Made by a program: the position numbers and the translations under genes. A DNA stretch of 64,000 nt, taken from contig VGKQ01000003.1 in NCBI GenBank assembly GCA_016866995.1, positions 118 through 64,117 of the forward strand, in the 5' to 3' direction. Positions 49,072-64,000 of this stretch are shown here, one piece after another. How positions within the stretch are numbered: the first letter of the stretch is position 1; every line of letters starts with the position of its first letter. The DNA comes from Candidatus Pacearchaeota archaeon. GTDB taxonomy: Archaea > Nanobdellota > Nanobdellia > Pacearchaeales > GW2011-AR1. The notes under the pieces are model-generated. The model did no database searches and was not told the origin of the DNA. It was given only the letters and a program-made list of their open reading frames with translations.

Positions 49072-50088
49072 ATGCCAGAACCAAGGAAACTGAAGACGAA
49101 GATAGCAATTGTAGGATGGGGAAATGTTGGGAGAGGGGTTTATCAGGCTATACAGAAAAATCCTGACATGGAATTAATAGGAATAATCTCCAGGACTCCT
49201 AAACGAGTTAATGATGAATTTGGAAATAAACCTGATGCCCCATTAATCTATGCTTTAGGAACAGTTGACGATAATTTATGGAAAAGAATGGAAGCGGATG
49301 TTGCTGTATTATGCGGGGGAAGCGCGACTGACTTGCCTGAACAAGGTCCGTATTTTGCACAGTTTTTTAACACAGTTGATAGTTTTGACACTCACGCAAA
49401 AATTCCAGAGTATTTTGATAAAATGAATAGAGTGGCTAAAGGGAATAATCATGTTGCGGTTATATCTGCTGGATGGGATCCTGGAATATTTTCAGTTGAG
49501 AGAGTTTTAGGAAATGCTTTTCTTCCTGGCTCAAGAGCTTACACTTTCTGGGGAAGAGGAGTCAGCCAGGGACATTCTGATGCATTAAGAAGAGTTCCAG
49601 GAGTGTTGGACGCAATTCAGTACACTGTTCCTGTTCAAGAGGCTTTGAGTTCAGTAAGAAGTGGAGTTAATCCTGAGCTAACAACAAGGCAGAAACATAT
49701 GAGAGAGTGCTTTGTTGCTTTAAAACCCAGAGCAAATCCAGATGAAGTTAGAAAGGCAATTGTTACAATGCCAAATTATTTTGCAGATTATAATACTAGT
49801 GTTGTGTTTGAGACTCCTGAGCAGGTAGCTAAGAGAAAAAAGGAGATGCCTCATGCTGGATTTGTGCTTACATCTGGAAAAACTGGAAATGGAAATAAAG
49901 CGGTTGTAGAATATTCTAATACTTGGAAGAGTAATCCTGAAGCAACTGGAAGTATTTTAGTTGCTTGTGCGAGAGCGTGTCATAGACTTTCTCTTGAGGG
50001 CAGGGCAGGAGCATTTACAATGCTTGATATTCCTCCTGCAATGCTTTCTCCGCTTTCTCAGGAAGAACTTTTAAGAAGTTGGATGTAA
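49072..50088 (+). CDS. ddh: meso-diaminopimelate D-dehydrogenase
   Basis: Colinear with Corynebacterium Ddh as recalled: IAIVGWGNVGRGV, GSATDLPEQ, SAGWDPGIFS, FWGRGVSQGHSDALRRVPGV. Confidence 0.85.
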   Translation: MPEPRKLKTKIAIVGWGNVGRGVYQAIQKNPDMELIGIISRTPKRVNDEFGNKPDAPLIYALGTVDDNLWKRMEADVAVLCGGSATDLPEQGPYFAQFFNTVDSFDTHAKIPEYFDKMNRVAKGNNHVAVISAGWDPGIFSVERVLGNAFLPGSRAYTFWGRGVSQGHSDALRRVPGVLDAIQYTVPVQEALSSVRSGVNPELTTRQKHMRECFVALKPRANPDEVRKAIVTMPNYFADYNTSVVFETPEQVAKRKKEMPHAGFVLTSGKTGNGNKAVVEYSNTWKSNPEATGSILVACARACHRLSLEGRAGAFTMLDIPPAMLSPLSQEELLRSWM

Positions 50089-50089
50089 A

Positions 50090-53649: not shown

Positions 53650-53660
53650 GTTTTTTATTT

Positions 53661-54497
53661 TTATTTTAGCTTTTTCAGCTCTTGAATTCTTTTTCTCGCA
53701 TCAATTGATTGCGAGAAAAGCTTCCAGAAAATTCTGGATAGCCATTCTGTCCAGTCCTTATCTTTGATTGTATAGAATATAAAAATCTTTTTATCAAGCT
53801 CGTGAAGCTTTCCTGTCGGCTCTTTTATCTCTTTTATCCTAAAAAGCTTGTTGTCAAAGATAAATGCCCTAATTGGATGCTCTCTATGTCTGATTTCTAT
53901 ACATTCTCTTCCATATTTGAAATTTAATGAAAGAACACGCTCTATATTATTTATTCCTGCAAGGTCTATTCTGCATAATATCTTTATTGTAACCCCTTTT
54001 TTCACAAGATCCTCTAGAATTTTGAATACATCAATTGTTTTATTTTTTAGATTTATAAAAGAAAGATTTCCAGAAAGAATTGTAAGCTGTTTCTCTGTTT
54101 TTTTAAATAATTCTCCCAGTTCCTTAAGATTGTCTCCTGATTCATCAATCGCTTTTTCTACTATTGCTTTTTTGTTTTTATCTTGAACATGCTGGAATAT
54201 GTCAAATGCTGAAAAGTCTTCTTTTTTCCTTGCTCTTAGTATTTCTTGTTCAAGCTGCTCTTGGAATACTGAACTTGAGGCTTTTTCTATACTGCTCCAG
54301 AAAACTATTTTTAATGCTCCTCTTGTTCCTTCTCTGAATACTCGGGTTGACAATGTTCCAAAATTCTTTTCTATATCTTGTATATATCTGTCTGCTGTTC
54401 TCCAGTTTTTTCCTGTATGTTCTGCTATTTCCTGTATGCTTCTCGGCTTCAGGTAGACAAAATCTTCTATTTTCTTTGTTATGGCACTATCTAACAT
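53661..54497 (-). CDS. wHTH regulator with TrmB-C/PLD-like C-terminal domain
   Basis: N-terminal wHTH (RSIQEIAEHTGKNWRTADRYIQDIE). The C-terminal beta-rich domain resembles the TrmB sensor half. Confidence 0.45.
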   Translation of the reverse strand: MLDSAITKKIEDFVYLKPRSIQEIAEHTGKNWRTADRYIQDIEKNFGTLSTRVFREGTRGALKIVFWSSIEKASSSVFQEQLEQEILRARKKEDFSAFDIFQHVQDKNKKAIVEKAIDESGDNLKELGELFKKTEKQLTILSGNLSFINLKNKTIDVFKILEDLVKKGVTIKILCRIDLAGINNIERVLSLNFKYGRECIEIRHREHPIRAFIFDNKLFRIKEIKEPTGKLHELDKKIFIFYTIKDKDWTEWLSRIFWKLFSQSIDARKRIQELKKLK

Positions 54498-54594
54498 GAT
54501 AGATAATAGATCTTAGGGTATAAAAGCTTTATGCAACACTGCAGACAATTTATGTACAAAAATATGTATATAGTTTGCATGTCTATGATTTGAT

Positions 54595-55227
54595 ATGGAA
54601 AATAAAATAATTTTAATTGGAGGAGTTCCGGGAACAGGGAAAAGCACATTAGCAACTGAATTAGCAAAAAGTTTTGGAATAGAGCATGTAATTCATACAG
54701 ACATAATAAGAGATGTTATGAGGAGTTATGAAGATAAAACTAAAAATCCTCTTTTATTTGATGTTTCCCACAAGTGCTGGAAATATTTTGGAGAATTAAA
54801 TAATTGTAATGTTATTAAAGGATTTTTTGAACATACTTTTTTGATGAAAAGCATAATAAAGAAATTAATATTTAATAATATAAAGGCAGGAACAAGTGCA
54901 GTCATAGAAGGAGTTCATATAACACCATTTCTCGCTCTTGAAATTCCCAAAAATATACCTATTTTTATTCTTTCTATAAACAATAAAAATGAGCATTTTA
55001 AGATGTTTGATAATAAGAATAATAGAAGAACAATCAAAAATGAGGAATGGTATGAAAATTACAATAATATTTCTTTAATCCAAGATAAAATCTCTTTATT
55101 GGCTGAAAAATTATCCCCAAATTTTAATGTACATTTAATAGAGAATAAGTCTTTTGATAAAACTCTTGATGAAATAAATTTTATATTAAAAAATGGAAGA
55201 CTTGAGAGAATGCGACTATGTTGTTGA
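54595..55227 (+). CDS. 2-phosphoglycerate-kinase-like P-loop kinase
   Basis: ILIGGVPGTGKSTLATELAKSFGIEHVIHTDIIRDVMR matches the 2PGK family N-terminus. Confidence 0.6.
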   Translation: MENKIILIGGVPGTGKSTLATELAKSFGIEHVIHTDIIRDVMRSYEDKTKNPLLFDVSHKCWKYFGELNNCNVIKGFFEHTFLMKSIIKKLIFNNIKAGTSAVIEGVHITPFLALEIPKNIPIFILSINNKNEHFKMFDNKNNRRTIKNEEWYENYNNISLIQDKISLLAEKLSPNFNVHLIENKSFDKTLDEINFILKNGRLERMRLCC

Positions 55228-56065
55228 TAAAAATTACAGAATTTATATTGTAAGAGGATATAAAAACAAAAATAAAATTTTAGCTAATTTAGTATTTGAG
55301 CCCTCTAGTAAAGGAAGATATAATATTTTATTCAAAAAAAATTATCAGAAAGTAATAGATAATAATATTATGCCCTGTTTTTTAAAAAGAAAGAACATCA
55401 AATTTATTTTCAAGCCAAATAAGGAATTCTCTAAAATTTATAATAAGATAAAAGAAAGCAAATGGGAAGAGATTGCTGATTTTATTATGCGTCTTGGCGT
55501 CAAAAAAGATGATATTGGAATATTTGGCTCTGCATTGCTTGGTTTTGACATAGAAAAAGATGTTGATTTTGTAGTTTATGGAATTAAAAATTATAATAAA
55601 ATTAAAAATAATATTAAAAAATTAAAAAATAAGCTTGTGATTGGGAATATAAACAAAAATCATATATCTTATCAAATAAAAAAACATGGAAGTAAATTTT
55701 CAAAAAAGAACAGTTTTAGCTTGATGCTGAGAAATAAATGGGCATCTATGCAGATAAACAAGAAAATTCTTAGCACAATACGGTTTGTTTATGATAAAAA
55801 CGAAGTTCCTGAAGATATTCAGATTAAAAAAGGCAAAAAAATAATTATTTCTGGCAAAACATTTGGCTGCTGGAGGACTAACTTTAGCCCAAGAATTTTT
55901 AAGATAATAACAAGCAAAAGAGAATACAGAGTTTTAACTTATTTTTGGATATATCAGTCTTGTGTCAGAGACGGGCAGAAAGTAAGGATAAAGGGCGAGC
56001 TTAATAAAAAGAATAATACAATTTATTTGTCTAAATTTCAGCACTGGATTAAAATTTTAAAATGA
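55193..56065 (+). CDS. Pol-beta-superfamily nucleotidyltransferase with C-terminal OB-like region
   Basis: GIFGSALLGFDIEKDVDFVV is a G-S-x(n)-D-x-D signature. The rest is not recognised. Confidence 0.4.
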   Translation: MEDLRECDYVVDKNYRIYIVRGYKNKNKILANLVFEPSSKGRYNILFKKNYQKVIDNNIMPCFLKRKNIKFIFKPNKEFSKIYNKIKESKWEEIADFIMRLGVKKDDIGIFGSALLGFDIEKDVDFVVYGIKNYNKIKNNIKKLKNKLVIGNINKNHISYQIKKHGSKFSKKNSFSLMLRNKWASMQINKKILSTIRFVYDKNEVPEDIQIKKGKKIIISGKTFGCWRTNFSPRIFKIITSKREYRVLTYFWIYQSCVRDGQKVRIKGELNKKNNTIYLSKFQHWIKILK

Positions 56066-56670
56066 AGTATGATTCCAAAAATGCAGAGAGAATATATAAT
56101 AAATATTGCAAAAAATATGAAAAAAGAACAATAAAATATGCAAAAAAATTCTTATCTTTTGATATTAATTTGTTTCTTGGGAATTTGCCTGGGAAAAATA
56201 TACTTGATTTAGGAAGTGGGCCCGGGAGAGACAGCTTATTATTTAAAAAAAGAGGATTTAATCCACTTTGCCTTGATATTTCGGAAGGAATGCTTAATCT
56301 ATGCAAAAATAAAGGATTAAAAACAATAAAAATGAATTTTGAGAATATAGATTTAAATAAGAATTTTGATGGGATTTGGTCTTATACTTCTTTAACTACA
56401 ATTCCTAAAAAATTAGCAGAACAAGTTATAAGAAAGGTGTATTCTTTGTTAAATGATAATGGGATATTTTACTTAGGAATTATAGAGGGAAATTTTGAAG
56501 GCTGGAAAGAGCCTGATAAAAAATATAAGCTGAAAAGATTTGTGTCAAGATATAATTTTAATGAGATTTTGAATATGTGCAAAAATTTTGAATTATTATA
56601 TTTCAAAAAAATATCTAATAAAGAAACAGGTAGAAATACTTATCTTAATTTTATGTTTAGGAAAATCTAA
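56062..56670 (+). CDS. class I SAM-dependent methyltransferase
   Basis: Motif I ILDLGSGPGRD. Overlaps the upstream stop. Confidence 0.7.
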   Translation: MKYDSKNAERIYNKYCKKYEKRTIKYAKKFLSFDINLFLGNLPGKNILDLGSGPGRDSLLFKKRGFNPLCLDISEGMLNLCKNKGLKTIKMNFENIDLNKNFDGIWSYTSLTTIPKKLAEQVIRKVYSLLNDNGIFYLGIIEGNFEGWKEPDKKYKLKRFVSRYNFNEILNMCKNFELLYFKKISNKETGRNTYLNFMFRKI

Positions 56671-56700
56671 ATTTCAATAATCCTGCCTTTTCTTAATGAT

Positions 56701-57222
56701 TTATCTGTGAATTCTGTCTTCTTCTTGGGATTCACTTGGAATCATAAGATCTTTAGGATAATTATCAGGATAGCCATCTACTGTTTTTATAAGATTATTA
56801 TCCTTATCATAAATTTTAGTTTCAGAACTTGCTTTTCCATCTCTGTCATTATCTCTCATTCTTAAAACAAATTTTCCAATATATACTCCTGCTCTAAATA
56901 ATTCAATAGTCTGCTCTCCTTCTTTAATGCCTGGCTTCCACTGGGTTTTTTTATAAAATCCCTTTGCCCTGTATTCTACTCTATTTATGGAATTTTTATC
57001 AACTACTCCCTGTGCTTCAAATCTCTGGACAAATTCTCCCTTTTCATTATAAAAAGTAGTCTTTCCAATAACTTCTCTTTTATCATTAATAAACTTATAT
57101 TCTTTTCCAGGAATAACTATCTTTGTTCCTGGAGCTAATCTTTCGAGTATAGTTTGACATCCGCAAGTTATTCCGGTAGCTAGAACTATAGCAACTAATC
57201 CTGCTCTTAGCAATTTTTTCAT
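56701..57222 (-). CDS. putative lipoprotein / exported protein
   Basis: Signal peptide followed by Cys residues (LATGITCGC). Confidence 0.5.
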   Translation of the reverse strand: MKKLLRAGLVAIVLATGITCGCQTILERLAPGTKIVIPGKEYKFINDKREVIGKTTFYNEKGEFVQRFEAQGVVDKNSINRVEYRAKGFYKKTQWKPGIKEGEQTIELFRAGVYIGKFVLRMRDNDRDGKASSETKIYDKDNNLIKTVDGYPDNYPKDLMIPSESQEEDRIHR

Positions 57223-57311
57223 ATTTTTATAATAAATTTATTATTCTTAAATATTTATATACTAAGATAACATACTAAAATGTTGTTTTAGATTTCTATT
57301 ACCCCTCTTAA

Positions 57312-57330
57312 TCTCCCCTTAGAGGGGAGA
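57312..57330 (-). terminator. perfect 8-bp hairpin 26 nt downstream of the metallophosphoesterase gene
   Basis: tctcccct-tag-aggggaga. No obvious oligo-T run follows, so the terminator role is uncertain. Confidence 0.3.
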
Positions 57331-57355
57331 ATTATAGGAATAATCTATGATTATT

Positions 57356-57991
57356 CTAGATTTCTATGATTTTTCCCTTTCTTCCAACATTTATTATTCT
57401 GGTTTTTCCTATTTTTTCCTCAATTCCTTCAAGTTCATGAATATGCCCTGAAATGAACAAGTCGGGCTGGAATTTTTCTATTGCTTTTCTTATTCCGCTT
57501 GAACCTGGGAAGCCAGAAAGCTCAGAGCGAGTTCCTTCTGCATGCATATGTGTTACTAAAATTTTCTTTTCGAGATTTTTTATTTTTTCAAAATTCTTTT
57601 TTAACTGCTCAAATGCTTCTTTTTCATTTAATTGCAGAGTGCCTGGATTTCCCAAGCCAAAAATTCCTATGTTTCCATACTTGGCATGATATTCATGCAG
57701 ATTTTTTATTCCATACATTCTTGATAAAAAATCTGCTGTGTCTGGGGAGTCCCAGTTTCCTGGCACAAAGAGAACTTTTTCCTTTCTGCTTGTGAATGGC
57801 TTGATTAAATTTTCTGTTTCTATTAATCCAACTATATCTCCTGTTAATATAACCAAATCTACTTTTTCCCTTTCTGCTTTTTTTGCAAGTTCGAGAGCAA
57901 GTTTCGTATCTCCATGTATGTCTCCTGCTGCGAGAATTTTGAATTTCTTCTCTTGTTTTTCTTCTTTCTTTGTTTTTTTTGATTCTATCAT
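57356..57991 (-). CDS. calcineurin-like metallophosphoesterase
   Basis: GDIHGD, GDIVG, GNWD and GHIH motifs. Confidence 0.8.
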   Translation of the reverse strand: MIESKKTKKEEKQEKKFKILAAGDIHGDTKLALELAKKAEREKVDLVILTGDIVGLIETENLIKPFTSRKEKVLFVPGNWDSPDTADFLSRMYGIKNLHEYHAKYGNIGIFGLGNPGTLQLNEKEAFEQLKKNFEKIKNLEKKILVTHMHAEGTRSELSGFPGSSGIRKAIEKFQPDLFISGHIHELEGIEEKIGKTRIINVGRKGKIIEI

Positions 57992-58173
57992 ATTCTTATT
58001 AGTTTATTATTGTTTAAAAATGTTCTTTATTAACTCGCTATTTAAGATTTAATTGTTTATTATTAATAATTGTTTCTTGGATTTATTTTTACACTTTACT
58101 TTTAGAAAATATAGAAGAAATAAGAGAAAAACGAAAGTTTTATAAGGATAATCAGTATATAATAATTATATAC

Positions 58174-58202
58174 GCTCACCATTGCTTATGCAATGGGTGA
58201 GC
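58174..58202 (+). promoter_or_regulatory. perfect 12-bp-stem palindrome/hairpin just upstream of NYN copy 2
   Basis: gctcaccattgc-ttat-gcaatgggtgagc. It ends 7 nt before the ATG at 58210 and sits just downstream of the AT-rich TATA-like run 58155-58171. Confidence 0.55.
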
Positions 58203-58209
58203 ACCTAAA

Positions 58210-58809
58210 ATGAAGGTTTCTGTATTTATAGACGGAAATAATTTTTATCATGGTTTGAGATATATTTATGGCAAAGAAGCAAGATTAAAAATGTTTGATT
58301 ATAAGGGGTTTATAGATTATCTCTTAAAAGACAGAGAGGTTTCAGAAATTTTTTATTATAATGCTGAGCTTGACAAATCAAAAAATCAAGAAAAATTTAA
58401 AAGTCAGAAAGAATTTTTTAATAATCTAAAGAAAATACCCAAATTTAATTTAATATTATGCAAGTTATTAAAAAGAAAAATAAAAGGAACAAACAAATTT
58501 TATTATGTCCTTAAAGAGGATGATATACATATGGCTGTTGATATAGTAGAAGGAGCTTGCGAAGATAATTTTGATGTTGCTATTCTTGTATCAGGAGATG
58601 GTGATTTTGTTCCTGCTGTGAGGGCTGTTCAGAAGAGAAGCAAGATTGTGGAAAATATTTATTTCAAAAAAAGCTCATCCAGAAACTTAAAACAACATTG
58701 CAACAAATCTTTAGAGCTAACAAAAGAAATTTTAGACAATTTTTCCAGTCATTATCAAAAAACAAACCCGTTAGGGCTTATTAGCAGAAAATCTAATGAT
58801 TTTCGCTAA
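58210..58809 (+). CDS. NYN/LabA-like (PIN-related) domain protein, copy 2
   Basis: VSVFIDGNNFYH and AILVSGDGDFVPAVRAVQ signatures. The stop codon lies inside the first dif-like site. Confidence 0.7.
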   Translation: MKVSVFIDGNNFYHGLRYIYGKEARLKMFDYKGFIDYLLKDREVSEIFYYNAELDKSKNQEKFKSQKEFFNNLKKIPKFNLILCKLLKRKIKGTNKFYYVLKEDDIHMAVDIVEGACEDNFDVAILVSGDGDFVPAVRAVQKRSKIVENIYFKKSSSRNLKQHCNKSLELTKEILDNFSSHYQKTNPLGLISRKSNDFR

Positions 58810-58827
58810 AAGTCTGTTATATTCAAT
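58800..58827 (+). repeat. dif-like site J0 (array boundary, degenerate left arm overlapping the NYN stop codon)
   Basis: TTTTCGCTAAA-AGTCTG-TTATATTCAAT. The right arm is identical to J3, J5 and J10. Confidence 0.45.
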
Positions 58828-58982
58828 TCTGGGTTTGCCTTACAGGCACGCTTCGCTACCGAAAATTCTAATGTTGTTATCTTCGTTAAAATCATAAAGA
58901 AAACTCTCACAAAATTGCTACGCAACTTTGCCTAACAAAATTTTAACGAAATTGTTGAAAAAAACCTCCACCAAAAGCACAC
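58827..58982 (+). repeat. left arm of the segmented inverted repeat bracketing ORF 59022-59426
   Basis: Blocks ttctgggtttgcc, ccgaaaattc, gttgttat, ttgttgaaaaa and aaaagcac(ac) are each the reverse complement of a block in 59427-59489. The left arm carries extra inserted segments. Confidence 0.8.
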
Positions 58983-58992
58983 AAACGATAGA

Positions 58993-59000
58993 TTTAAATA
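58993..59000 (+). promoter_or_regulatory. TATA box of module ORF 59022-59426
   Basis: tttaaata is centred about 26 nt upstream of the ATG, the spacing expected for a leaderless archaeal mRNA. Confidence 0.5.
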
Positions 59001-59021
59001 ATTCTTAATTTAAATAAATAT

Positions 59022-59426
59022 ATGATGCCAAAAAATAACAAACCAGATGGTGTTTCAAATGCTTTAATCCTACTTTGGATAAGTCTTGGAGTAGGAGTTC
59101 TAAACAGCATAATTAATTTTTCAAATTCTGTTGATTTGGCACAAGGATATGGTTCTGGATTTGTTATTTTTGTAACTCTTTTCACATTGGTGTTTATGGC
59201 TTTCTTTATCTATATGATAGGGCAAGGAAAGAATTGGGCAAGAATCACTTTTTTGGTTCTATTCATAATTGGAATTCCTTTTTCCGTATTGCCTGCAATA
59301 GTCTTGCTTGTAACAAACCCAATCTCTGCAATGTTTTCAGCAGGCATAACTATATTGCAATTAATCGCACTAATTTTCTTATTCCAAAAAAGTTCTTCTG
59401 ATTGGTTTCATTCTATGAAAAAATAG
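59022..59426 (+). CDS. small membrane protein (module J0-J1)
   Basis: 134 aa, about 4 hydrophobic helices, own TATA box. Confidence 0.6.
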   Translation: MMPKNNKPDGVSNALILLWISLGVGVLNSIINFSNSVDLAQGYGSGFVIFVTLFTLVFMAFFIYMIGQGKNWARITFLVLFIIGIPFSVLPAIVLLVTNPISAMFSAGITILQLIALIFLFQKSSSDWFHSMKK

Positions 59427-59489
59427 TGTGCTTTCCAAAAATAATTTTTCAACAACTACAATAACAACGAATTTTCGGCAAACCCAGAA
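59427..59489 (+). repeat. right arm of the segmented inverted repeat bracketing ORF 59022-59426
   Basis: gtgtgcttt, tttttcaacaa, ataacaac, gaattttcgg and (gg)caaacccagaa. About 51 matched nt in five colinear blocks. Confidence 0.8.
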
Positions 59490-59491
59490 CT

Positions 59492-59530
59492 CGAGATTTT
59501 TCCCTTCGGGAACATTGCATTAAAATCTCG
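59492..59530 (+). other. module-terminal stem-loop preceding J1
   Basis: cgagatttt ... aaaatctcg (9 bp) enclosing the inner hairpin ttccc-ttc-gggaa. It ends 14 nt before the J1 left arm. Confidence 0.6.
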
Positions 59531-59544
59531 TCCTCATTTCATTC

Positions 59545-59572
59545 GGAGAAACTAACAGGGCTTATACGCGAT
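59545..59572 (+). repeat. dif-like site J1
   Basis: GGAGAAACTAA-CAGGGC-TTATACGCGAT. Confidence 0.55.
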
Positions 59573-59723
59573 AGCTCTTCTGAAGAAGACTACCTCTGCG
59601 GGGAAATTTATATTATCATCAGCAAGAATTTTTTAAAGTTAGCCCCTTGACCACGCAACAAGTTGCTCTCGCTTCATTATAAATCCATTTCATTCCTTTA
59701 TACATTCAGCTCGGGGGACTTAA
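59562..59723 (+). repeat. noncoding module R-div (diverged relative of module R) between J1 and J2
   Basis: About 160 bp with no ORF. It shares with R the 3' end ATTCAGCTCG..GGGA.T.TAA and an internal AGCCCC..ACCAC...TTGCTC.CGC block. Confidence 0.5.
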
Positions 59724-59740
59724 CACTAATTAGTTTCAAT
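59713..59740 (+). repeat. dif-like site J2
   Basis: GGGGGACTTAA-CACTAA-TTAGTTTCAAT. Confidence 0.55.
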
Positions 59741-59806
59741 AAGCGGGCGAGCTAAAAGTTAGTCAAAATTTTCAATTTTGAAGAAATAAATAAAATAGGG
59801 CAAGTC

Positions 59807-60049
59807 TTACTTCTTTTGTCTGTTGATTAATTCAGGTTCGCCAAAATTTCCATTACCATCATTTTTTGCAACAAATGTATCATAATCAGCAAAATCCCAA
59901 TGAGATTCACCATAATTTCCTGCGACAACTTCTTGTTTTTTATCATTATTCAAATCAACATAAGCATTATAATTTCTTGGTTGGTTGTCGCAACCAGCTA
60001 AAGCTAAAACCAATGCTCCAATTCCCAGTGCTTTTCTCATAAATCTCAT
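59807..60049 (-). CDS. small lipoprotein with FG-GAP-like motif (module J2-J3)
   Basis: Lipobox LALAGC. DLNNDKKQEVV and NDGNGNFG resemble FG-GAP/VCBS repeat cores. Confidence 0.6.
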   Translation of the reverse strand: MRFMRKALGIGALVLALAGCDNQPRNYNAYVDLNNDKKQEVVAGNYGESHWDFADYDTFVAKNDGNGNFGEPELINRQKK

Positions 60050-60071
60050 AGTTGATTGTAATTGACTTATC

Positions 60072-60079
60072 TTTATAAA
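60072..60079 (-). promoter_or_regulatory. TATA box of module ORF 59807-60049
   Basis: tttataaa is centred about 26 nt upstream of the minus-strand ATG at 60049. Confidence 0.5.
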
Positions 60080-60136
60080 TCTTTTGGTTAATTTACTACT
60101 TTATAGTTAATATTGATAACGCCGAATTCTGAACTC

Positions 60137-60153
60137 AAAATCCTTCGGATTTT
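60137..60153 (+). other. module-terminal hairpin preceding J3
   Basis: aaaatcc-ttc-ggatttt, a perfect 7-bp stem ending 2 nt before the J3 left arm. An outer bulged pairing CGCCGAA (60120-60126) with TTCGG-gt-CG reaches into the arm. Confidence 0.6.
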
Positions 60154-60155
60154 TC

Positions 60156-60183
60156 GGGTCGGATAACACAGCTTATATTCAAT
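60156..60183 (+). repeat. dif-like site J3
   Basis: GGGTCGGATAA-CACAGC-TTATATTCAAT. Confidence 0.65.
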
Positions 60184-60323
60184 TTCTTCACAATATTCTT
60201 TGTTCAGAAACTTTGGGCTCGATATACTAATCCCAAGAAACCACCAAAGCCCCACCACCCTTAATTGCTCGCCCAACCTTCCAGAGGAATTATTAACATA
60301 ATTCAGCTCGTCAGGGAATATAA
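60173..60323 (+). repeat. noncoding module R copy 1 (J3 to J4)
   Basis: 151 bp. Identical to copy 2 except for one C in a C-run (tcccaag versus tccccaag). Starts TTATATTC and ends GAATATAA (8-bp terminal inverted repeat). Confidence 0.9.
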
Positions 60324-60340
60324 CAGCGATTATGCACAAT
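60313..60340 (+). repeat. dif-like site J4
   Basis: AGGGAATATAA-CAGCGA-TTATGCACAAT. Confidence 0.65.
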
Positions 60341-60434
60341 AAATTTTTGGGCTCGGGCAGAATATAGTCTCGCAAATTTTCAATTTGCTTGTTATTTAGA
60401 ATAAGGGGCTTTGGCTAAAAGAAAAAAACTCTGC

Positions 60435-60884
60435 TTATCGTCTTCCGAAGCTTAATTCTCTAGTCCTTTCTGCATATGCTTTTCCATCGTTATGATCCTC
60501 CCCTATTCTTAATCTTCCGTTCTCATCGCGATTTGGAAAGAAATGAGGATTATAAAATGGATGAACAAGTTCATTATCATAAAGAACACTTCCATCTTTT
60601 GCATGAATAGACATGATTGCATCGGGTAATCCCAAAAATGGAATTCCAGTTGTACTTTTCATAATTTTTCTTCCTTGAAAAATATCCATATCTTGTATTT
60701 CTTCAGGAACTCTTTCTAAATGGGTTACAACCACATTAGAGTAGGGCGTTACTTCTTTTAATTTTCCCCTAATACATTTTCGTTTATTAAATTGATTAAC
60801 AAAAATAACACTTACAAATTCTCCAAGATGTTCAGGAAGTCTTTCCATTGCTTCAATTCTTTCAGCTTGATTCATCATTTTCAT
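60435..60884 (-). CDS. hypothetical protein (module J4-J5)
   Basis: 149-aa ORF, no family recognised. Confidence 0.55.
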   Translation of the reverse strand: MKMMNQAERIEAMERLPEHLGEFVSVIFVNQFNKRKCIRGKLKEVTPYSNVVVTHLERVPEEIQDMDIFQGRKIMKSTTGIPFLGLPDAIMSIHAKDGSVLYDNELVHPFYNPHFFPNRDENGRLRIGEDHNDGKAYAERTRELSFGRR

Positions 60885-61038
60885 TTACCTTATAAATAGA
60901 ATAAACAGCCCCTATTTAAACCTTTCGATTTTAACTACTTAGAAAAGACAACATAAAAGCCAAAGCCCCTAAAAACGAGCCCTCGCCCAAAAATTTACTT
61001 TCTCAGAAAACTTCGTTTTCTTCGAACTTTTTCACTCT

Positions 61039-61083
61039 GAAATTTCCAGCCTCTTTTCGCTTTCGCTCAAAGGGGGAAATTTC
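61039..61083 (+). other. module-terminal stem-loop preceding J5
   Basis: gaaatttcc ... ggaaatttc (9 bp), ending 7 nt before the J5 left arm. Confidence 0.55.
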
Positions 61084-61090
61084 GAGGAAA

Positions 61091-61118
61091 AAGGAAACTA
61101 ACACCAATTATATTCAAT
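61091..61118 (+). repeat. dif-like site J5
   Basis: AAGGAAACTAA-CACCAA-TTATATTCAAT. Confidence 0.65.
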
Positions 61119-61259
61119 TTCTTCACAATATTCTTTGTTCAGAAACTTTGGGCTCGATATACTAATCCCCAAGAAACCACCAAAGCCCCACCACCCTTAA
61201 TTGCTCGCCCAACCTTCCAGAGGAATTATTAACATAATTCAGCTCGTCAGGGAATATAA
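61108..61259 (+). repeat. noncoding module R copy 2 (J5 to J6)
   Basis: 152 bp. See copy 1. Confidence 0.9.
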
Positions 61260-61276
61260 CACCAATTAGCCAAAAT
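61249..61276 (+). repeat. dif-like site J6
   Basis: AGGGAATATAA-CACCAA-TTAGCCAAAAT. Confidence 0.6.
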
Positions 61277-61330
61277 TTTTTCCTGCTGGAAAAAACTCGA
61301 GTGAAATTAATCAATTGACCGCCCCCGCCC

Positions 61331-61343
61331 GATGGACAAGCGC
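61331..61343 (+). repeat. left copy of the 13-bp perfect inverted repeat bracketing ORF 61422-61868
   Basis: gatggacaagcgc, preceded by ccccgccc and followed by TAAC. Confidence 0.85.
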
Positions 61344-61363
61344 TAACGATAATTATTTAAAGC
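61336..61363 (+). repeat. possible dif-like site J6a (weak arms, overlaps the TATA region of the downstream ORF)
   Basis: ACAAGCGCTAA-CGATAA-TTATTTAAAGC. Confidence 0.35.
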
Positions 61364-61421
61364 ATACTTCCTTACAGATTCTAACCGAAAGGGCGAAAGA
61401 GTTCTGTGATAAAATTTGAAA

Positions 61422-61868
61422 ATGGACAATACAATTCAACCAGAATTAAGCAGATTTGCTAAATTTGTAGTTGGCGCCGTAGGTTCTGCCGTTGTTGCAC
61501 TTTGCACCTATCTTCCGATAATGAGCTTTACTGAAAAATATAATTCTTCATATCCTGAAATACAATCTAAGCTAAATTCTTGGGTGCAAAGTTCTCCAAG
61601 AAATGAAGTACAAGAAAGAAAAGATAGATTGCGCCAACTTGAAAGACAAGTTTTAGAAAAGGCTCAAATGTTTGATGGAAAACTGGGTCTGTCTTTCGAA
61701 GACCAAGCAAATCTGGCTAGAGAGTTGGGATATAAGGGAACTCTTTCGCAAGGAAGAAGATTCTATTTTGGGCAAGATATAAGAGGATTTCCAGAATCTC
61801 AACTTATTATTGGAAATGAATCTTTAGAAGTTAGTGAAGAAACTGCCCAAAATTACTTGAAAAAATAA
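61422..61868 (+). CDS. hypothetical protein with one N-terminal TM helix (module J6-J7)
   Basis: 148 aa from the ATG at 61422 (the track uses the TTG at 61416). The stop TAA lies inside an ATAAC half-site. Confidence 0.55.
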   Translation: MDNTIQPELSRFAKFVVGAVGSAVVALCTYLPIMSFTEKYNSSYPEIQSKLNSWVQSSPRNEVQERKDRLRQLERQVLEKAQMFDGKLGLSFEDQANLARELGYKGTLSQGRRFYFGQDIRGFPESQLIIGNESLEVSEETAQNYLKK

Positions 61869-61869
61869 C

Positions 61870-61882
61870 GCGCTTGTCCATC
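61870..61882 (+). repeat. right copy of the 13-bp perfect inverted repeat bracketing ORF 61422-61868
   Basis: gcgcttgtccatc, preceded by ATAAC and followed by ccccgccc-TAAC. Confidence 0.85.
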
Positions 61883-61911
61883 CCCCGCCCTAACAATAGT
61901 CTAATTTTACT

Positions 61912-61985
61912 CGCCCTATCAGGAGTATTCGCCTCAGCTCTGAAAAAGCTCCACTTTTTGCGGGTCGCTCACGAGGATAGGGTCG
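61912..61985 (+). other. module-terminal stem-loop whose 3' strand runs into the J7 left arm
   Basis: cgcCCTATC ... GATAGGGtcg, 9 positions with one mismatch. An inner aaaaag-ctcca-cttttt hairpin is present. Confidence 0.5.
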
Positions 61986-62007
61986 GATAACACCAATTAT
62001 GTCTAAT
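61980..62007 (+). repeat. dif-like site J7 (best match to bacterial dif)
   Basis: GGGTCGGATAA-CACCAA-TTATGTCTAAT versus E. coli dif GGTGCGCATAA-TGTATA-TTATGTTAAAT. 17 of 22 arm positions are identical by hand count. Confidence 0.7.
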
Positions 62008-62088
62008 TGTTCGAAGGCACTAAACTTAGAAATTAAAAGAGAGTTAAAGATGGCACTTCAATGCCCCCGACCACCTACCCTCAAATTC

Positions 62089-62361
62089 TCAATTCTTGTA
62101 AATCTTATCGTGATGATCAAAATCCGAGAAAAAGATAAAATTATTCATTTTGTCAAATTTGAATACAAGAACAAAATGCCCAACATGAGCTCTCTTAAAT
62201 TCTTTCATGTCATATCTTAAATTTTTATAATGCTCGATGTCAGGGCTATTTAAGACTTCATTCATCTTATTAAGAAGATTTTCGTAAAGTTGCTTGTCTT
62301 TTTTCTCAAGTTTAGCAAGAATTCTATCAAACTCTTTACTAGTCTTATATTGCCTCGGCAT
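62089..62361 (-). CDS. relE: RelE/ParE-family toxin (module J7-J8)
   Basis: 90 aa. The KLEKKDKQLYENLLNKMNEVL ... KNLRYDMKEFKRAHVGHFVLVFKFD ... FDHHDKIY pattern is typical of RelE/StbE toxins. Confidence 0.7.
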   Translation of the reverse strand: MPRQYKTSKEFDRILAKLEKKDKQLYENLLNKMNEVLNSPDIEHYKNLRYDMKEFKRAHVGHFVLVFKFDKMNNFIFFSDFDHHDKIYKN

Positions 62362-62362
62362 T

Positions 62363-62608
62363 TTACCTCTTTTCTATCTTCTTTCTTAATTGTTTGATAG
62401 AATTAAGGGTTTCGCCATAACCTTCTTCTTCAATTTTTCTTAATTTTTCTAAGTATTCAGGCCTTAATTCAGGTTCTATAATATTTGCTCCACATTCTAT
62501 AACAATTTTGGCAATAGCTTCACTTTTAGTCTTTAGATTATATCTAGCTTTAACTATATTCAAAATTTGATTAGCTTCATTAGGAATTTCAATCATTGCT
62601 TGAACCAT
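62363..62608 (-). CDS. putative antitoxin (DUF2683-like) of the RelE module
   Basis: 81 aa, ending 1 nt before the toxin start. The N-terminus IEIPNEANQILNIVKARYNLKTKSEAIAKIV resembles archaeal RelE-partner antitoxins. Confidence 0.55.
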   Translation of the reverse strand: MVQAMIEIPNEANQILNIVKARYNLKTKSEAIAKIVIECGANIIEPELRPEYLEKLRKIEEEGYGETLNSIKQLRKKIEKR

Positions 62609-62820
62609 TTTTACGATTTTATATATTTAGTATAAATATCTTATATATATGAAGTATATAAACCTTTCGTTTTTGAAAAAATTTACAAACAGCCAACCAA
62701 AATTTCTTCTTTTTCAAAAAAAGAAGCAAAAACCGCGCGCGTGCCCCAAAACGAAAACTATACTGCCGACGACTTTTGATTTTTTGCCTTCGCCGAACGT
62801 TGCGCTCTCGCCTTTGGCTC

Positions 62821-62848
62821 GGGGCGTATAACACAGCTTATAAGAAAT
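62821..62848 (+). repeat. dif-like site J8
   Basis: GGGGCGTATAA-CACAGC-TTATAAGAAAT. Confidence 0.65.
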
Positions 62849-62853
62849 ATTAC

Positions 62854-63201
62854 TCACGATTTTTGGGCTTTATTAAAACCTGGGACACCATAGAAATTAA
62901 CAGTATAAAGTCTGACAGATTTTGTGCCTAAAACACGCTGGTCTTCAAAGTTTCCAGGATACCCAAAATCTACTCTCATTAATCCTGCTTTTTCATCTTT
63001 AAGAACTAGAAAATATTCCAAGCCATTTGCTTCCGCAAGCATTCTCGCATCATCAATAACTCCTTGACTTTCTCGCCTAACATAAGTCTTTGTCAAAGCT
63101 AAACATACACTAGCAAGATTAAATGGTTTATTATCTGGTCCAACTATTGTTCCATTGCGTCCTTGAGTAAGCTGTTGCACCATGTTTTGAAGAAGTAACA
63201 T
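62854..63201 (-). CDS. hypothetical protein (module J8-J9)
   Basis: 115-aa ORF. A TATA-like tttaaaaata lies very close to the first ATG, so the internal ATG at 63183 (MVQQL) may be the real start. Confidence 0.5.
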   Translation of the reverse strand: MLLLQNMVQQLTQGRNGTIVGPDNKPFNLASVCLALTKTYVRRESQGVIDDARMLAEANGLEYFLVLKDEKAGLMRVDFGYPGNFEDQRVLGTKSVRLYTVNFYGVPGFNKAQKS

Positions 63202-63362
63202 AATATTTTTAAATCTTTTCTATTTGTGACTACCCTTGAGTTTTAATTGTAATTTTTAATAGCCCAAAAATCGTTCCGTCATAACTCAAAAAATTTATTG
63301 TCTCGTGGCGTTCCGCTCCACTCCACTACTCAACATAAATTTTTTGGTTTTTTCTGCGAAAA

Positions 63363-63390
63363 AACGAATATAACACCAATTATAATCAAT
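63363..63390 (+). repeat. dif-like site J9
   Basis: AACGAATATAA-CACCAA-TTATAATCAAT. Confidence 0.65.
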
Positions 63391-63529
63391 TTCTTCACAA
63401 TATTCTTTGTTCAGAAACTTTGGGCTCAATATACTAATCCCCAAGAAACCACCAAAGCCCCACCACCCTTAATTGCTCGCCCAACCTTCCAGAGGAATTA
63501 TTAACATAATTGGAAGTCAGGGAATATAA
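63380..63529 (+). repeat. noncoding module R copy 3 (J9 to J10)
   Basis: 150 bp. Differs from copies 1 and 2 at ttataatc versus ttatattc, gctcaat versus gctcgat, and a replaced patch cataattggaagtcaggg versus cataattcagctcgtcaggg. Confidence 0.9.
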
Positions 63530-63546
63530 CAGGCGTTATATTCAAT
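63519..63546 (+). repeat. dif-like site J10 (internally palindromic)
   Basis: AGGGAATATAA-CAGGCG-TTATATTCAAT. GAATATAAC-AGGC-GTTATATTC is a perfect 9-bp inverted repeat. Confidence 0.7.
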
Positions 63547-63583
63547 TTGCCCTACGGCGACTTAGAAGTAGAAAAATTGGGCT

Positions 63584-64000
63584 TTATTTACTAAAATATT
63601 GCAATATCATACTTGTTAAACCATACGCTGCTGCTCCAGATGCAAGTACTAAACCGGTTGTTAGCAATAGATGTTCTTTTAATAGAAATCTGTGGTGGAG
63701 CATAATTTCATCAGCAGCCTCCCCCATTTCAGAATCCACTCTTCCAGCGCATACATCATTTAAATATCTACGACCTTGTGGGCCTGATTTTAGAATTTTC
63801 CTTATTCTGTCCTTCGTATCAGGACAATTATTAAGTGCATATAGGGCCCAATCCAAAAATCTAAAAAATAAATTACTTGCATCGCCTGACCCTCTATCAT
63901 TATATATGCTCAACAACCTTGAAGCTGCAACAGAAGGCAATTTTCTTGCATCCTCATGAAGTATAGATTCAAAAAATGCTTCAACCTCGTCAATTGATGG
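63584..64000 (-). CDS. hypothetical protein with C-terminal TM helix, 5' end outside the window (module after J10)
   Basis: The frame stays open from the TTG at 63940 to the window edge (PSIDEVEAFFESILHEDARK ...), so the gene is truncated by the window. Confidence 0.5.
   Translation of the reverse strand, partial: PSIDEVEAFFESILHEDARKLPSVAASRLLSIYNDRGSGDASNLFFRFLDWALYALNNCPDTKDRIRKILKSGPQGRRYLNDVCAGRVDSEMGEAADEIMLHHRFLLKEHLLLTTGLVLASGAAAYGLTSMILQYFSK

What the first reader, a model, noticed from the sequence alone, without database searches (positions are those of the whole stretch)
60173..63529. A 150-bp noncoding module in three near-identical copies (plus one diverged copy), each precisely bounded by dif-like sites
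Seen directly:
- 60173-60323 and 61108-61259 are identical except for a single C in a C-run.
- 63380-63529 differs at two substitutions and one short replaced patch.
- 59562-59723 is a diverged relative of the same length class. It shares its 3' end (ATTCAGCTCG..GGGA.T.TAA) and an internal AGCCCC..ACCAC..TTGCTC.CGC block.
- Every copy starts at the TTAT of one site and ends at the ATAA of the next, so its own termini (TTATATTC ... GAATATAA) form an 8-bp terminal inverted repeat.
- No reading frame is conserved between copies. The 95-aa and 68-aa track ORFs that cross copies 1 and 3 lie on different strands, and copy 2 has no such ORF.
- The + strand is strikingly C-rich in its centre (ccccaagaaaccaccaaagccccaccaccc) and contains a 7-bp hairpin gaattat-taac-ataattc.

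Inference: R is either an ORF-less cassette that has been recruited repeatedly, the functional accessory sequence of the recombination system, or a small RNA gene or regulatory element carried as a module. It alternates with ORF modules in the order ORF, R-div, ORF, R, ORF, R, ORF, TA, ORF, R, ORF.
Basis: partly seen in the sequence, partly recalled or inferred. Interest (0 to 1): 0.7.

Follow-up and report, generated by a model that had tools for sequence, protein, structure and literature searches.

The report
Empty cassette in archaeal Xer array
The 150-bp repeat is a gene-less "empty cassette" sitting three times in a chromosomal array of small gene cassettes that are separated by Xer/dif-type recombination sites in a tiny (Pacearchaeota) archaeon; it matters mainly because the array looks like an undescribed, Xer-based counterpart of bacterial integrons.

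Summary
R occurs three times (60173-60323, 61108-61259, 63380-63529; 95-99% identical), only inside an array of 28-bp dif-like sites, and identity stops at the inner edges of the flanking sites.

R has no ORF, no Rfam match and no unusually stable fold. It contains the same non-coding landmarks that flank the ORF cassettes of the array: a right arm, a 5' hairpin, a C-rich box, a 3' hairpin and GTCAGGG plus the left arm.

Similar arrays occur in other DPANN archaea. In three of them a 274-aa XerA-family recombinase gene lies at the array head. The same recombinase gene sits next to different cassette sets in different samples. Cassette 3' ends show strong base-pair covariation. Short ORF-less modules are common there and often multi-copy.

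"R-div" belongs to one such family, shared with other arrays (E 6e-10). Its similarity to R itself is weak.

Best reading: R is a cargo-less cassette spread by site-specific recombination. Its own two arms are the best-matched pair in the array. The sRNA, promoter and accessory-element readings are weaker but not excluded.

I found no paper describing such arrays. No recombinase gene lies near this array, and no R insertion polymorphism was seen.

The parts
58800..64000 (+). Cassette array, running off the window end. In L036 it continues about 1.75 kb further, giving 12 modules in all. S0 to S10 are all in the same orientation. S0 (58800-58827) has a degenerate left arm and overlaps the stop codon of the NYN gene.
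60156..60183 (+). Site S3 (GGGTCGGATAA CACAGC TTATATTCAAT), the upstream boundary of R1.
60173..60323 (+). R copy 1 (module M4 = 60173-60329 including the downstream spacer). Hairpin A 60183-60210; TTGGGC/GCCCAA stem 60213-60218 and 60271-60276; C-box 60240-60260; CCTTCCA 60277-60283; hairpin C core 60287-60303; GTCAGGG 60310-60316.
60313..60340 (+). Site S4 (AGGGAATATAA CAGCGA TTATGCACAAT), the downstream boundary of R1.
61091..61118 (+). Site S5 (AAGGAAACTAA CACCAA TTATATTCAAT), the upstream boundary of R2.
61108..61259 (+). R copy 2 (module M6 = 61108-61265). Same internal landmarks as R1; C-box 61176-61196; hairpin C core 61223-61239.
61249..61276 (+). Site S6 (AGGGAATATAA CACCAA TTAGCCAAAAT), the downstream boundary of R2.
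63363..63390 (+). Site S9 (AACGAATATAA CACCAA TTATAATCAAT), the upstream boundary of R3.
63380..63529 (+). R copy 3 (module M10 = 63380-63535). Two substitutions, plus a patch that removes the outer pairs of hairpin C.
63519..63546 (+). Site S10 (AGGGAATATAA CAGGCG TTATATTCAAT). This is the only site whose two arms are a perfect palindrome.
59562..59729 (+). R-div (module M2). An ORF-less module of a different family (RdivFam), with the core CTGCGGGG..loop..CCCCTTGACCACGCAACAAGTTGCTCTCGC. It lies between S1 (59545-59572) and S2 (59713-59740).
60997..61107 (+). 3' element ("tail") of ORF cassette M5. It is homologous to a cassette tail and to a 157-bp ORF-less module of another array, and it contains hairpin C (DNA fold z = -4.75).
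62064..62075 (+). C-box (CCCCCGACCACC) in the TA cassette M8. This is the same strand-specific, array-only motif as in the centre of R.

Best explanation
R is a cargo-less (ORF-less) cassette. It sits in a chromosomal gene-cassette array of a Pacearchaeota (DPANN) archaeon whose modules are delimited by 28-bp Xer/dif-type core sites.

**What R is made of**
- R consists only of the non-coding parts that every cassette of this array type carries.
- In order these are: an 11-bp right arm; a 5' hairpin; a short stem (TTGGGC/GCCCAA) enclosing a C-rich box; the linker CCTTCCA; a 3' hairpin; and GTCAGGG plus the left arm.

**Proposed mechanism (inferred)**
- A XerA-family tyrosine recombinase recombines two directly repeated sites.
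- This releases a module as a circle, or exchanges it between sister chromosomes, and re-inserts it at any other site of the array.
- In this genome the recombinase would be encoded elsewhere. In related arrays it is encoded at the array head.
- R1 and R2 have own-arm pairs that are perfect palindromic partners (GAATATAA/TTATATTC), the best-matched in the array. R3 has 7 of 8. If arm symmetry favours recombination, R would be the preferred substrate, and that would explain three copies.
- On this reading R behaves like a non-autonomous minimal element of the cassette system and adds extra recombination sites to the array.

**Shown versus inferred**
- Shown: the boundaries, the lack of coding or RNA signal, the shared landmarks, the existence of related arrays with a recombinase gene and variable content, and the folded nature of cassette 3' elements in one related array.
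- Inferred: the recombinase acting here, excision and re-insertion as the copying route, and the absence of any further function.
For: **R itself**
- Identity between copies begins and ends exactly at the inner edges of the flanking core sites. The outer arms and spacers differ.
- R occurs only in the array: 3 of 3 hits in the window and 3 in the whole array. A metagenome scan with its core found it only in the same lake population.
- There is no conserved ORF. There is no Rfam hit at gathering threshold or at E <= 1. Fold z-scores are -0.9 to -1.5.
- The own arms of R1 and R2 match 8 of 8 and R3 7 of 8, against 2 to 7 of 8 for the other modules.
- R shares 8-mers with the non-coding flanks of ORF cassettes M5 and M12 far above shuffles (8 and 7 shared; 0 of 500 shuffles reached this).
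- The C-box occurs only in arrays and only on the array strand.
- The 3' hairpin plus GTCAGGG architecture is shared with the tails of M5, M1 and M11 and with ORF-less modules of L030/L031 and L035.

**Related arrays**
- Related arrays (L025, L030/L031, L035) have a 274-aa recombinase at their head. It scores 216 to 236 bits against NF040815 recomb_XerA_Arch (cut-off 220).
- An identical recombinase gene with the same HisRS flank sits next to different cassette sets in L030 and L031.
- A homologous TA cassette occurs in the window and in L025.
- Short ORF-less modules are frequent and multi-copy in those arrays. RdivFam has 4 copies in L031 and 2 in L030. A roughly 45-nt unit occurs twice in full and once with a variant 5' end in L022.
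- The cassette 3' elements of L025 have 18 of 44 pairs with compensatory changes. 95% of cells are paired, against about 40% in slid controls.
Against: - No tyrosine recombinase gene lies in the 64 kb window or at either end of the array.
- All contigs available from this population show the same arrangement, so no R presence/absence polymorphism was seen.
- A double-stranded circle of about 157 bp is sterically demanding.
- The spacers differ between sites apart from the leading CA. Classical two-strand-exchange Xer recombination would tolerate that poorly.
- Arm symmetry as a determinant of efficiency is an assumption.
- The conserved strand-specific C-box and hairpins could reflect a function I cannot see.
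- R has no detectable close homologue outside this population. The family assignment rests on architecture and short motifs, not on a significant alignment: the profile of the other ORF-less modules hits the M5 tail and not R.
Confidence: 0.6

Rival explanations
1. R is not an independent cassette. It is a cis-acting recombination element, either an attC-like junction or an accessory sequence, that belongs to the cassette upstream of it. Together with its two flanking simple sites it would form a composite site, like the near-identical VCR repeats that follow different ORFs in the Vibrio superintegron.
For: - ORF modules and short modules largely alternate: 4 of 7 ORF-ORF junctions carry a short module.
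- R is built of the same hairpin and motif elements as cassette tails.
- Tails in L025 are demonstrably structured.
- R plus its two sites has the overall palindromic layout of two simple sites around a central region.
- In L031 a short module sits directly next to the recombinase-proximal site, and two short modules there are locked to the preceding cassette by 5-nt-spacer sites.
Against: - Conservation among R copies excludes the outer arms and both spacers, so both flanking sites behave as crossover points.
- Three ORF-ORF junctions (S7, S8, S11) have a single site and no R.
- Each ORF cassette already has its own tail.
- The covariance model of the L025 element gives only marginal hits on R (E = 0.04 and 2.8, driven by the site).
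Confidence: 0.15
2. R is a functional non-coding cassette carried as cargo: a small RNA gene, or a promoter, terminator or insulator that acts on neighbouring cassettes.
For: - ORF-less integron cassettes with promoter activity are known (PMC6557892, seen).
- R has three hairpins and a strand-specific C-rich box (G-rich on the other strand) that is conserved between arrays.
- R is maintained at 95-99% identity.
Against: - The fold is not more stable than shuffles (z -0.9 to -1.5).
- There is no Rfam match.
- Promoter-like and terminator-like scans of the region are at shuffle level, although that scan uses a bacterial consensus.
- The ORFs after R1, R2 and R3 are on the -, + and - strands, so there is no consistent orientation.
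- The R3 patch destroys the outer part of hairpin C.
- The conserved pieces are the ones shared with ordinary cassette tails.
Confidence: 0.12
3. R is the decayed remnant of an ORF cassette (M5-like) that lost its cargo. It was then copied by homologous or unequal recombination, or by replication slippage, rather than by site-specific recombination.
For: - R shares TTTGGGCTCG, CCAAAGCCCC and CTCGCCCAA, in the same order, with the two flanks of M5.
- ORF-less modules with a cargo-type inverted repeat but almost nothing between the repeats exist in L025 and L015.
Against: - Copy boundaries coincide with the core sites to the base in all three copies.
- No flanking sequence was co-duplicated.
- Deletion between inverted repeats is not a simple recombination product.
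- Origin by cargo loss is compatible with later site-specific spread, so this is a rival only for the copying step.
Confidence: 0.08
4. R is an ordinary MITE mobilised by a transposase.
For: It is short, non-coding and multi-copy, with 8-bp terminal inverted repeats.
Against: - The terminal repeats are simply the inner halves of the palindromic core sites.
- There are no target-site duplications.
- There are no copies outside the array in 64 kb, and none elsewhere in the metagenome scan.
Confidence: 0.02

Closest known systems
ORF-less gene cassettes and repeated cassettes of chromosomal integrons (IntI/attC systems, including the archaeal integrons of Ghaly et al. 2022, PMC9668308)
   Same: - A tandem array of small, mostly single-gene modules in one site orientation.
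- Toxin-antitoxin cassettes.
- A recombinase gene at the array head, divergently oriented, next to a first site with a degenerate outer arm (in related arrays).
- Variable cassette content beside a fixed platform.
- Cassette 3' elements conserved in structure rather than sequence.
- Modules without any ORF.
   Different: - The sites are compact 28-bp 11-6-11 palindromes, not 57-141-nt RYYYAAC...GTTRRRY hairpins. GTTRRRY is absent at all 12 boundaries.
- The recombinase is 274 aa and XerA-type. It falls below the integron-integrase cut-off and lacks the IntI insertion.
- The array in the window has no adjacent recombinase.
- The cargo is flanked by perfect 13-16-bp inverted repeats.
- ORF-less modules make up a quarter to a half of all modules.
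Acinetobacter pdif (dif) modules moved by XerC/XerD (e.g. PMC11705084, PMC12907356)
   Same: - Small modules (resistance genes, TA systems, unknown ORFs) bounded by 28-bp dif-like sites.
- Several modules can lie side by side.
- A host Xer recombinase encoded elsewhere is thought to act in trans.
   Different: - In pdif modules the flanking sites are in inverted (C/D against D/C) orientation, from my knowledge of that literature. Here all sites are direct.
- pdif modules are bacterial and mostly plasmid-borne, with a two-recombinase system. Here the host is archaeal, the array is chromosomal and the recombinase is presumably a single XerA.
- No structured 3' element or cargo-flanking inverted repeats are described there.
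IMEX elements (integrative mobile elements exploiting Xer, e.g. CTX/TLC) and the archaeal XerA/dif dimer-resolution system (PMC2958812, PMC8371274)
   Same: - The core-site architecture is 11-6-11 with ATAA/TTAT inner arms.
- Integration at a dif-like site creates two flanking sites, and tandem accumulation is possible.
- Folded single-stranded DNA can serve as a Xer substrate (CTX).
- XerA acts without FtsK in vitro and binds stem-loops.
   Different: - Archaeal dif is described as a single-copy site. Here there are 12 or more sites in 7 kb.
- IMEX elements are kb-sized phages or islands, not 150-bp non-coding units.
- It is not known whether any of these sites is the chromosome's dif.
MITEs
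   Same: Short, non-coding, multi-copy and non-autonomous, depending on an enzyme encoded elsewhere.
   Different: Confined to one array. The ends are halves of recombination sites. There are no target duplications, and mobility would be by conservative site-specific recombination.

Membership tests
Integron (IntI + attC cassette array) | Cassettes end in an attC site: RYYYAAC ... GTTRRRY imperfect hairpin of about 57-141 nt, with the crossover at G|TT. | tested here: not met
   GTTRRRY is absent at all 12 module boundaries. The boundaries are 28-bp 11-6-11 sites. The published archaeal attCs look different.
Integron (IntI + attC cassette array) | An integron integrase with the IntI-specific additional domain, adjacent to the array. 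| tested here: not met
   No tyrosine recombinase lies in the window or at either array end. Recombinases at related arrays are 274 aa. Against TIGR02249 they score 194-232 bits (cut-off 265), split in two stretches, and their best match is XerA.
Integron (IntI + attC cassette array) | Recombination element conserved in secondary structure with variable sequence. | tested here: inconclusive
   Met for the 3' elements of the related array L025 (18 of 44 pairs compensatory). For R itself the fold z is only -1 to -1.5, and there are too few homologues for covariation.
ORF-less cassette (functional class within cassette arrays) | A module bounded by two recombination sites of the array, with no conserved ORF. 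| tested here: met
Xer/dif-type core site | Two 11-bp inverted arms, a 6-bp spacer and conserved inner ATAA/TTAT. | tested here: met
   11 sites in the window. The architecture matches that described for archaeal and bacterial dif.
Xer/dif-type core site | Bound and recombined by the host XerA; single copy at the terminus. | not testable with these tools
   The host xerA was not found in the window. The sites are multi-copy by definition here. The negative GC skew is confined to the array, so it does not mark a terminus.
Acinetobacter-type pdif module | Module flanked by dif-like sites in inverted orientation (XerC/D against XerD/C). | tested here: not met
   All 11 sites have the same polarity, with the spacer starting CA next to the left arm.
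MITE | Dispersed copies with target-site duplications. | tested here: not met
   Copies occur only in the array. The flanks are site halves and spacers, not duplications.
Known RNA family (Rfam 15) | A covariance-model match. | tested here: not met
   No hit at gathering threshold over the window, and none at E <= 1 over 58700-64000.

The most novel reading that the evidence does not exclude
R and the other short modules are the minimal mobile unit, possibly the empty "chassis", of an undescribed archaeal gene-cassette system. Its components would be:
- a XerA-family recombinase;
- a 28-bp dif-like core;
- an adjacent folded cassette-3' element (an attC analogue);
- perfect cargo-flanking inverted repeats.

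This would be an independent, Xer-based counterpart of integrons that shapes accessory gene content in DPANN archaea. It would probably use a single-strand or folded-DNA step.
Probability: 0.4. Interest if true: 0.85.

Novelty: new variant of a known kind. Interest (0 to 1): 0.65.

Why it matters
**If the reading is right**
- DPANN archaea carry integron-like platforms built on the chromosome-dimer-resolution type of recombinase and site, rather than on IntI/attC. These organisms have tiny genomes and depend on hosts.
- That would give a concrete mechanism for their strain-level accessory gene flux.
- It would provide a natural example of what the Xer-to-integron transition may have looked like.
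- It would offer a simple 28-bp-site cassette system for experiments.

**What R contributes**
- R-type empty cassettes are the cleanest substrates for defining the minimal cis requirements.
- Their multiplicity explains why assemblies of these regions break. The contigs L001, L002 and L027 all end inside R.

Tried and rejected
- **GTDB genome scan with the R core 23-mer:** no hit.
- **Metagenome scan with a 20-mer of the core:** only the same Lake Tanganyika population, plus two unrelated chance hits. No diverged R homologues could therefore be collected for covariation.
- **Termini-plus-gap pattern in viral contigs:** 11 chance hits and no R. A site pattern there gave none.
- **Search for a recombinase in the window:** Pfam on 53 + 20 ORFs and tblastn with the L025 recombinase found none.
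- **Array at a conserved locus after the NYN gene:** rejected. The closest relative with a long contig (L041) has no array there.
- **Terminus/dif location inferred from cumulative GC skew:** rejected. The negative skew is confined to the array and reverts after it.
- **L025-type covariance model on the window:** only marginal hits.
- **Profile of the 157-bp ORF-less modules (L030 + L035):** it hits the M5 tail, not R. I therefore claim R's kinship with those modules from architecture and motifs only.
- **Further recombinase homologues (L044, L047):** no arrays.
- **Exact look-ups of the M5 and M7 proteins:** failed because my start codons differ from the called genes.
- **attC reading of the sites and of R:** considered and rejected.
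- **MAFFT alignment of seven tails:** it misaligned three of them, so hairpin C conservation is reported from individual folds and not as a formal covariation count.

Full report
**1. Observation**

The region was read directly and the repeats re-derived.
- R1 (60173-60323) and R2 (61108-61259) differ by one C in a C-run.
- R3 (63380-63529) has two substitutions and one replaced patch.
- A BLASTN search with the R interior and an nhmmer profile of the three copies find nothing else in the 64 kb window.
- Identity between copies starts at TTAT and ends at ATAA. The upstream left arms, the 6-bp spacers and the downstream right arms all differ.

The flanking sites form a series of eleven 28-bp elements, GGnnnnATAA CAnnnn TTATnnnnAAT, all on the + strand between 58800 and 63546.
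- A relaxed core pattern gives 36 matches against 13.5 +/- 4 in shuffles.
- Every exact + strand match but one (20337) lies in this stretch.
- The 11-6-11 layout with inner ATAA/TTAT is the one described for bacterial and archaeal dif.

The modules between the sites are:

| Module | Content |
|---|---|
| M1 | ORF, 134 aa |
| M2 | R-div |
| M3 | ORF, 80 aa |
| M4 | R1 |
| M5 | ORF, 149 aa |
| M6 | R2 |
| M7 | ORF, 150 aa |
| M8 | DUF2683/ParE toxin-antitoxin pair |
| M9 | ORF, 115 aa |
| M10 | R3 |
| M11 | ORF |

The same arrangement is present in independent assemblies of other samples (L001, L002, L027, L036), so it is not an assembly artefact.

**2. Organism and extent**

- The window encodes archaeal housekeeping genes: eRF1, RadA, AMMECR1, aminoacyl-tRNA synthetases and a topoisomerase.
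- The NYN-domain protein just upstream of the array is identical to an NCBI protein of "Candidatus Pacearchaeota archaeon" on a 67.9-kb contig.
- L036, from a second Lake Tanganyika sample, matches window 48210-64000 at 99.96% and continues beyond the window.
- The whole array has 12 modules over about 7 kb and contains R exactly three times.
- It ends in a degenerate site and is followed by ordinary genes (polyprenyl synthase, SerRS).
- No tyrosine recombinase gene lies in the window or at either end of the array.
- The first site, S0, has a degenerate left arm and overlaps the stop codon of the NYN gene. That gene's last ~20 residues are not conserved in homologues.

**3. R as a sequence**

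- No ORF is shared between copies.
- No Rfam family matches, either at gathering thresholds over the window or at E <= 1 over the array.
- As DNA or RNA, on either strand, R folds no better than dinucleotide shuffles (z -0.9 to -1.5).

The predicted fold has these parts, with coordinates:
- a terminal stem made by the two arms;
- a 5' hairpin, TTTCT-TC-ACAA...TTGT-TC-AGAAA;
- a 6-bp stem, TTGGGC/GCCCAA, around the C-rich centre;

**4. Related arrays**

A two-site pattern (two well-formed sites 122-152 nt apart) scanned over one genome per GTDB species gave 13 hits. Three of them are archaeal arrays of the same kind: two Woesearchaeota MAGs (L015, L022) and an unclassified archaeon (L025). The rest are unrelated tandem repeats.

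*Recombinase.* In L025 the array starts next to a divergently oriented tyrosine recombinase gene.
- The full protein (P0001, 274 aa) and a 45%-identical relative (P0004) score best against NCBIfam NF040815 recomb_XerA_Arch, at 216 and 236 bits (cut-off 220).
- They match the integron-integrase model only below its cut-off and in two stretches, so they lack the IntI insertion.

*Variable content.* P0004 is encoded on many contigs.
- In L030 and L031 the identical gene and the same HisRS flank sit next to arrays of dif-like sites with different cassette sets.
- This is direct evidence that such arrays gain and lose modules.
- L035 shows a third recombinase-linked array.
- A DUF2683/ParE cassette homologous to M8 is in L025 (37% and 45% identity).

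**5. Grammar of the cassettes**

Across these arrays an ORF module reads: right arm; a module-specific inverted-repeat copy; cargo; the second inverted-repeat copy; a 60-140-nt 3' element ("tail"); left arm.

*Cargo-flanking inverted repeats.*
- They are perfect and 13-16 bp long in at least 13 of 20 ORF modules. Shuffles give a mean of 7.5 and a maximum of 11-14.
- The 5' copy often starts directly after the arm.

*Tails are structured.* The six tails of L025 align to a two-helix structure next to the core site.
- 18 of the 44 predicted pairs show compensatory changes.
- 95% of cells are paired, against about 40% when partners are slid.
- None of 500 shuffles reach the observed covariation.

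*Tails in the window.* They are heterogeneous but share pieces with tails elsewhere.
- The M5 tail is homologous to the tail of a 2',5'-RNA-ligase cassette in L030/L031. The stem GAAATTTCC/GGAAATTTC becomes GAAAACTCC/GGAGTTTTC.
- A hairpin directly 5' of the left arm ("hairpin C") is predicted in the tails of M5, M1 and M11, in that L031 tail, in two ORF-less modules, and in R.
- Its fold z-score reaches -4.75 for M5.

**6. Short ORF-less modules are a regular component**

| Array | ORF-less modules |
|---|---|
| L030/L031 | A 157-bp module, and a 127-bp module present in 2 and 4 copies; one of the 127-bp copies lies directly next to the recombinase-proximal site |
| L022 | Three short modules sharing a ~45-nt unit (identical in two, variant 5' end in the third) |
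| L025, L015 | One 166-bp module each: a cargo-type inverted repeat with almost nothing between its copies, plus a tail |
| L035 | A 156-bp module at the distal end |

*R-div.* A profile of the 127-bp family built without the window sequence hits R-div at E = 5.8e-10. R-div is therefore a member of that family. Its resemblance to R is limited to tail-type motifs (alignment z about 3.3).

*The 157/156-bp modules.* Their profile hits the M5 tail (E = 0.003) rather than R. This shows that ORF-less modules are essentially bare tails.

**7. What R is made of**

- R shares TTTGGGCTCG, CCAAAGCCCC and CTCGCCCAA, in order, with the two non-coding flanks of M5, and further words with M12. It shares 8 and 7 8-mers respectively, and 0 of 500 shuffles reach that.
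- Its TTGGGC/GCCCAA stem has the same core as the cargo-flanking repeats of M5, M9 and M11.
- Its centre carries a C-box, CCCC(CG)ACCACC. In about 377 kb of fetched DNA this box occurs only inside arrays and only on the array strand. The occurrences are R x3, M8, M12, L030 and L035, leaving aside the two loci fetched on that very pattern.
- Its 3' end (CCTTCCA, hairpin, GTCAGGG, arm) matches the layout of the 157/156-bp modules.
- R thus has every non-coding landmark of a cassette and no cargo.
- The own arms of R1 and R2 are perfectly complementary (8 of 8) and R3's match 7 of 8. The other modules reach 2 to 7 of 8.

**8. Mechanism**

*Shown:*
- the boundaries are precise;
- R is confined to the array;
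- R is composed of shared cassette landmarks;
- related arrays are dynamic and linked to a recombinase gene;
- cassette tails are folded in one relative.

*Inferred:*
- A XerA-type enzyme recombines the direct sites, moving modules by excision and re-insertion or by sister-chromatid exchange.
- R, as the smallest unit with the most symmetric arms, was copied this way.
- Only the first two spacer bases (CA) are conserved. Together with the structured tails, this hints at a single-strand-exchange or folded-DNA step, as in integrons or CTX. This is speculation.

*Points against:*
- no recombinase gene lies nearby;
- no polymorphism for R was seen in the available contigs;
- a 157-bp double-stranded circle is small;
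- no alignable R homologues exist outside this population.

**9. Rivals**

- *Cis-acting junction or accessory element.* The partial alternation of ORF modules and short modules fits this. However, conservation excludes the outer arms and spacers, and three ORF-ORF junctions lack R.
- *RNA or regulatory cassette.* There is no positive evidence and no consistent orientation relative to neighbouring ORFs.
- *Decayed cassette copied by non-site-specific means.* The base-exact boundaries contradict this.
- *MITE.* The distribution contradicts this.

**10. Comparison and novelty**

- *Classical integrons, including the archaeal ones of Ghaly et al.* These use RYYYAAC...GTTRRRY hairpins and IntI with its extra domain. 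Both features were tested here and not met.
- *Acinetobacter pdif modules.* They share the 28-bp sites and the in-trans Xer idea. They are bacterial, and from my own knowledge of that literature their flanking sites are inverted.
- *Archaeal dif.* It is described as single copy.
- *Literature.* Five full-text searches found no description of Xer/dif-type cassette arrays in archaea. That is an absence in the held library, not proof.

I rate R itself as a new variant of a known kind, an ORF-less cassette in a Xer-based array. The array system behind it is the more interesting object.

Noticed in passing
window 58817-64000 (ORF modules M1, M5, M7, M9, M11); L036 16231-17535; L031, L035, L025: Each ORF cassette carries a perfect 13-16-bp inverted repeat flanking its cargo. 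Examples are M1 TTCTGGGTTTGCC at 58827/59477 and M5 TAAATTTTTGGGC at 60340/60985. The 5' copy usually lies directly after the right arm, and the 3' copy 60-140 nt before the next site. The sequences differ between cassettes. At least 13 of 20 modules are far above shuffles. The meaning is unknown; possibilities are synapsis of flanking sites in single-stranded DNA, or a trace of how cargo is loaded.
   Followed up: partly
L025 2464-6704 (minus strand): Six cassette 3' elements next to the dif-like core fold into two helices with a conserved loop, AGATTACCTA. 18 of 44 pairs have compensatory changes, and 0 of 500 shuffles reach the observed covariation. This is an attC-like hallmark attached to a Xer-type core site.
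   Followed up: yes
L030 6700-9990 vs L031 1-4300: An identical XerA-like recombinase gene and HisRS flank sit next to different cassette sets in two samples. The contigs L032 and L034 break in the first short module.
   Followed up: partly
window 58210-58827: The first array site overlaps the stop codon of the NYN-domain gene. This protein is 199 aa, whereas hundreds of 65-76% identical homologues are about 181 aa and do not cover its last ~20 residues. The array may therefore have been inserted into, or replaced, the gene's 3' end. A relative (L041) has no array there.
   Followed up: partly
L036 10500-16500 (= window 58700-64000 and beyond): The array has a negative GC skew (-0.13 to -0.18, C-rich on the site strand) whatever the gene orientation. 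The flanks are neutral or positive. A strand-specific C-box, CCCC(CG)ACCACC (G-rich on the opposite strand), occurs only in arrays.
   Followed up: partly
L031 ~3210 and L030 ~7781 (minus strand): Two sites have a 5-nt instead of a 6-nt spacer (GGAAACATAA CATCG TTAT; GAGAAACTAA CATAA TTAT). Each lies between an ORF cassette and a 127-bp short module, possibly locking the two together.
   Followed up: no
L022 6211-6282: A tRNA-Tyr gene lies inside a module of the Woesearchaeota array, between two dif-like sites.
   Followed up: no
L027 416-543 vs window 59879-59922: A contig from another Lake Tanganyika sample carries about 128 extra nt inside the 80-aa ORF of M3 (weak FG-GAP-like match). This is a repeat-number variant within the same population.
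   Followed up: no
L036 17535-17560 and 18093-18118: A 26-bp direct repeat, TTTATTGTTATTAATTTTGGAATTAT, brackets a 101-aa ORF at the distal end of the array, just after the last degenerate site.
   Followed up: no
window arms of S1, S2, S5, S8: Arms fall into palindromic partner families that are now split between different sites. GAAACTAA (left arms of S1 and S5) pairs with TTAGTTTC (right arm of S2). GCGTATAA (left arm of S8) pairs with TTATACGC (right arm of S1). This is as expected if sites were once symmetric and modules were shuffled at the spacer.
   Followed up: partly
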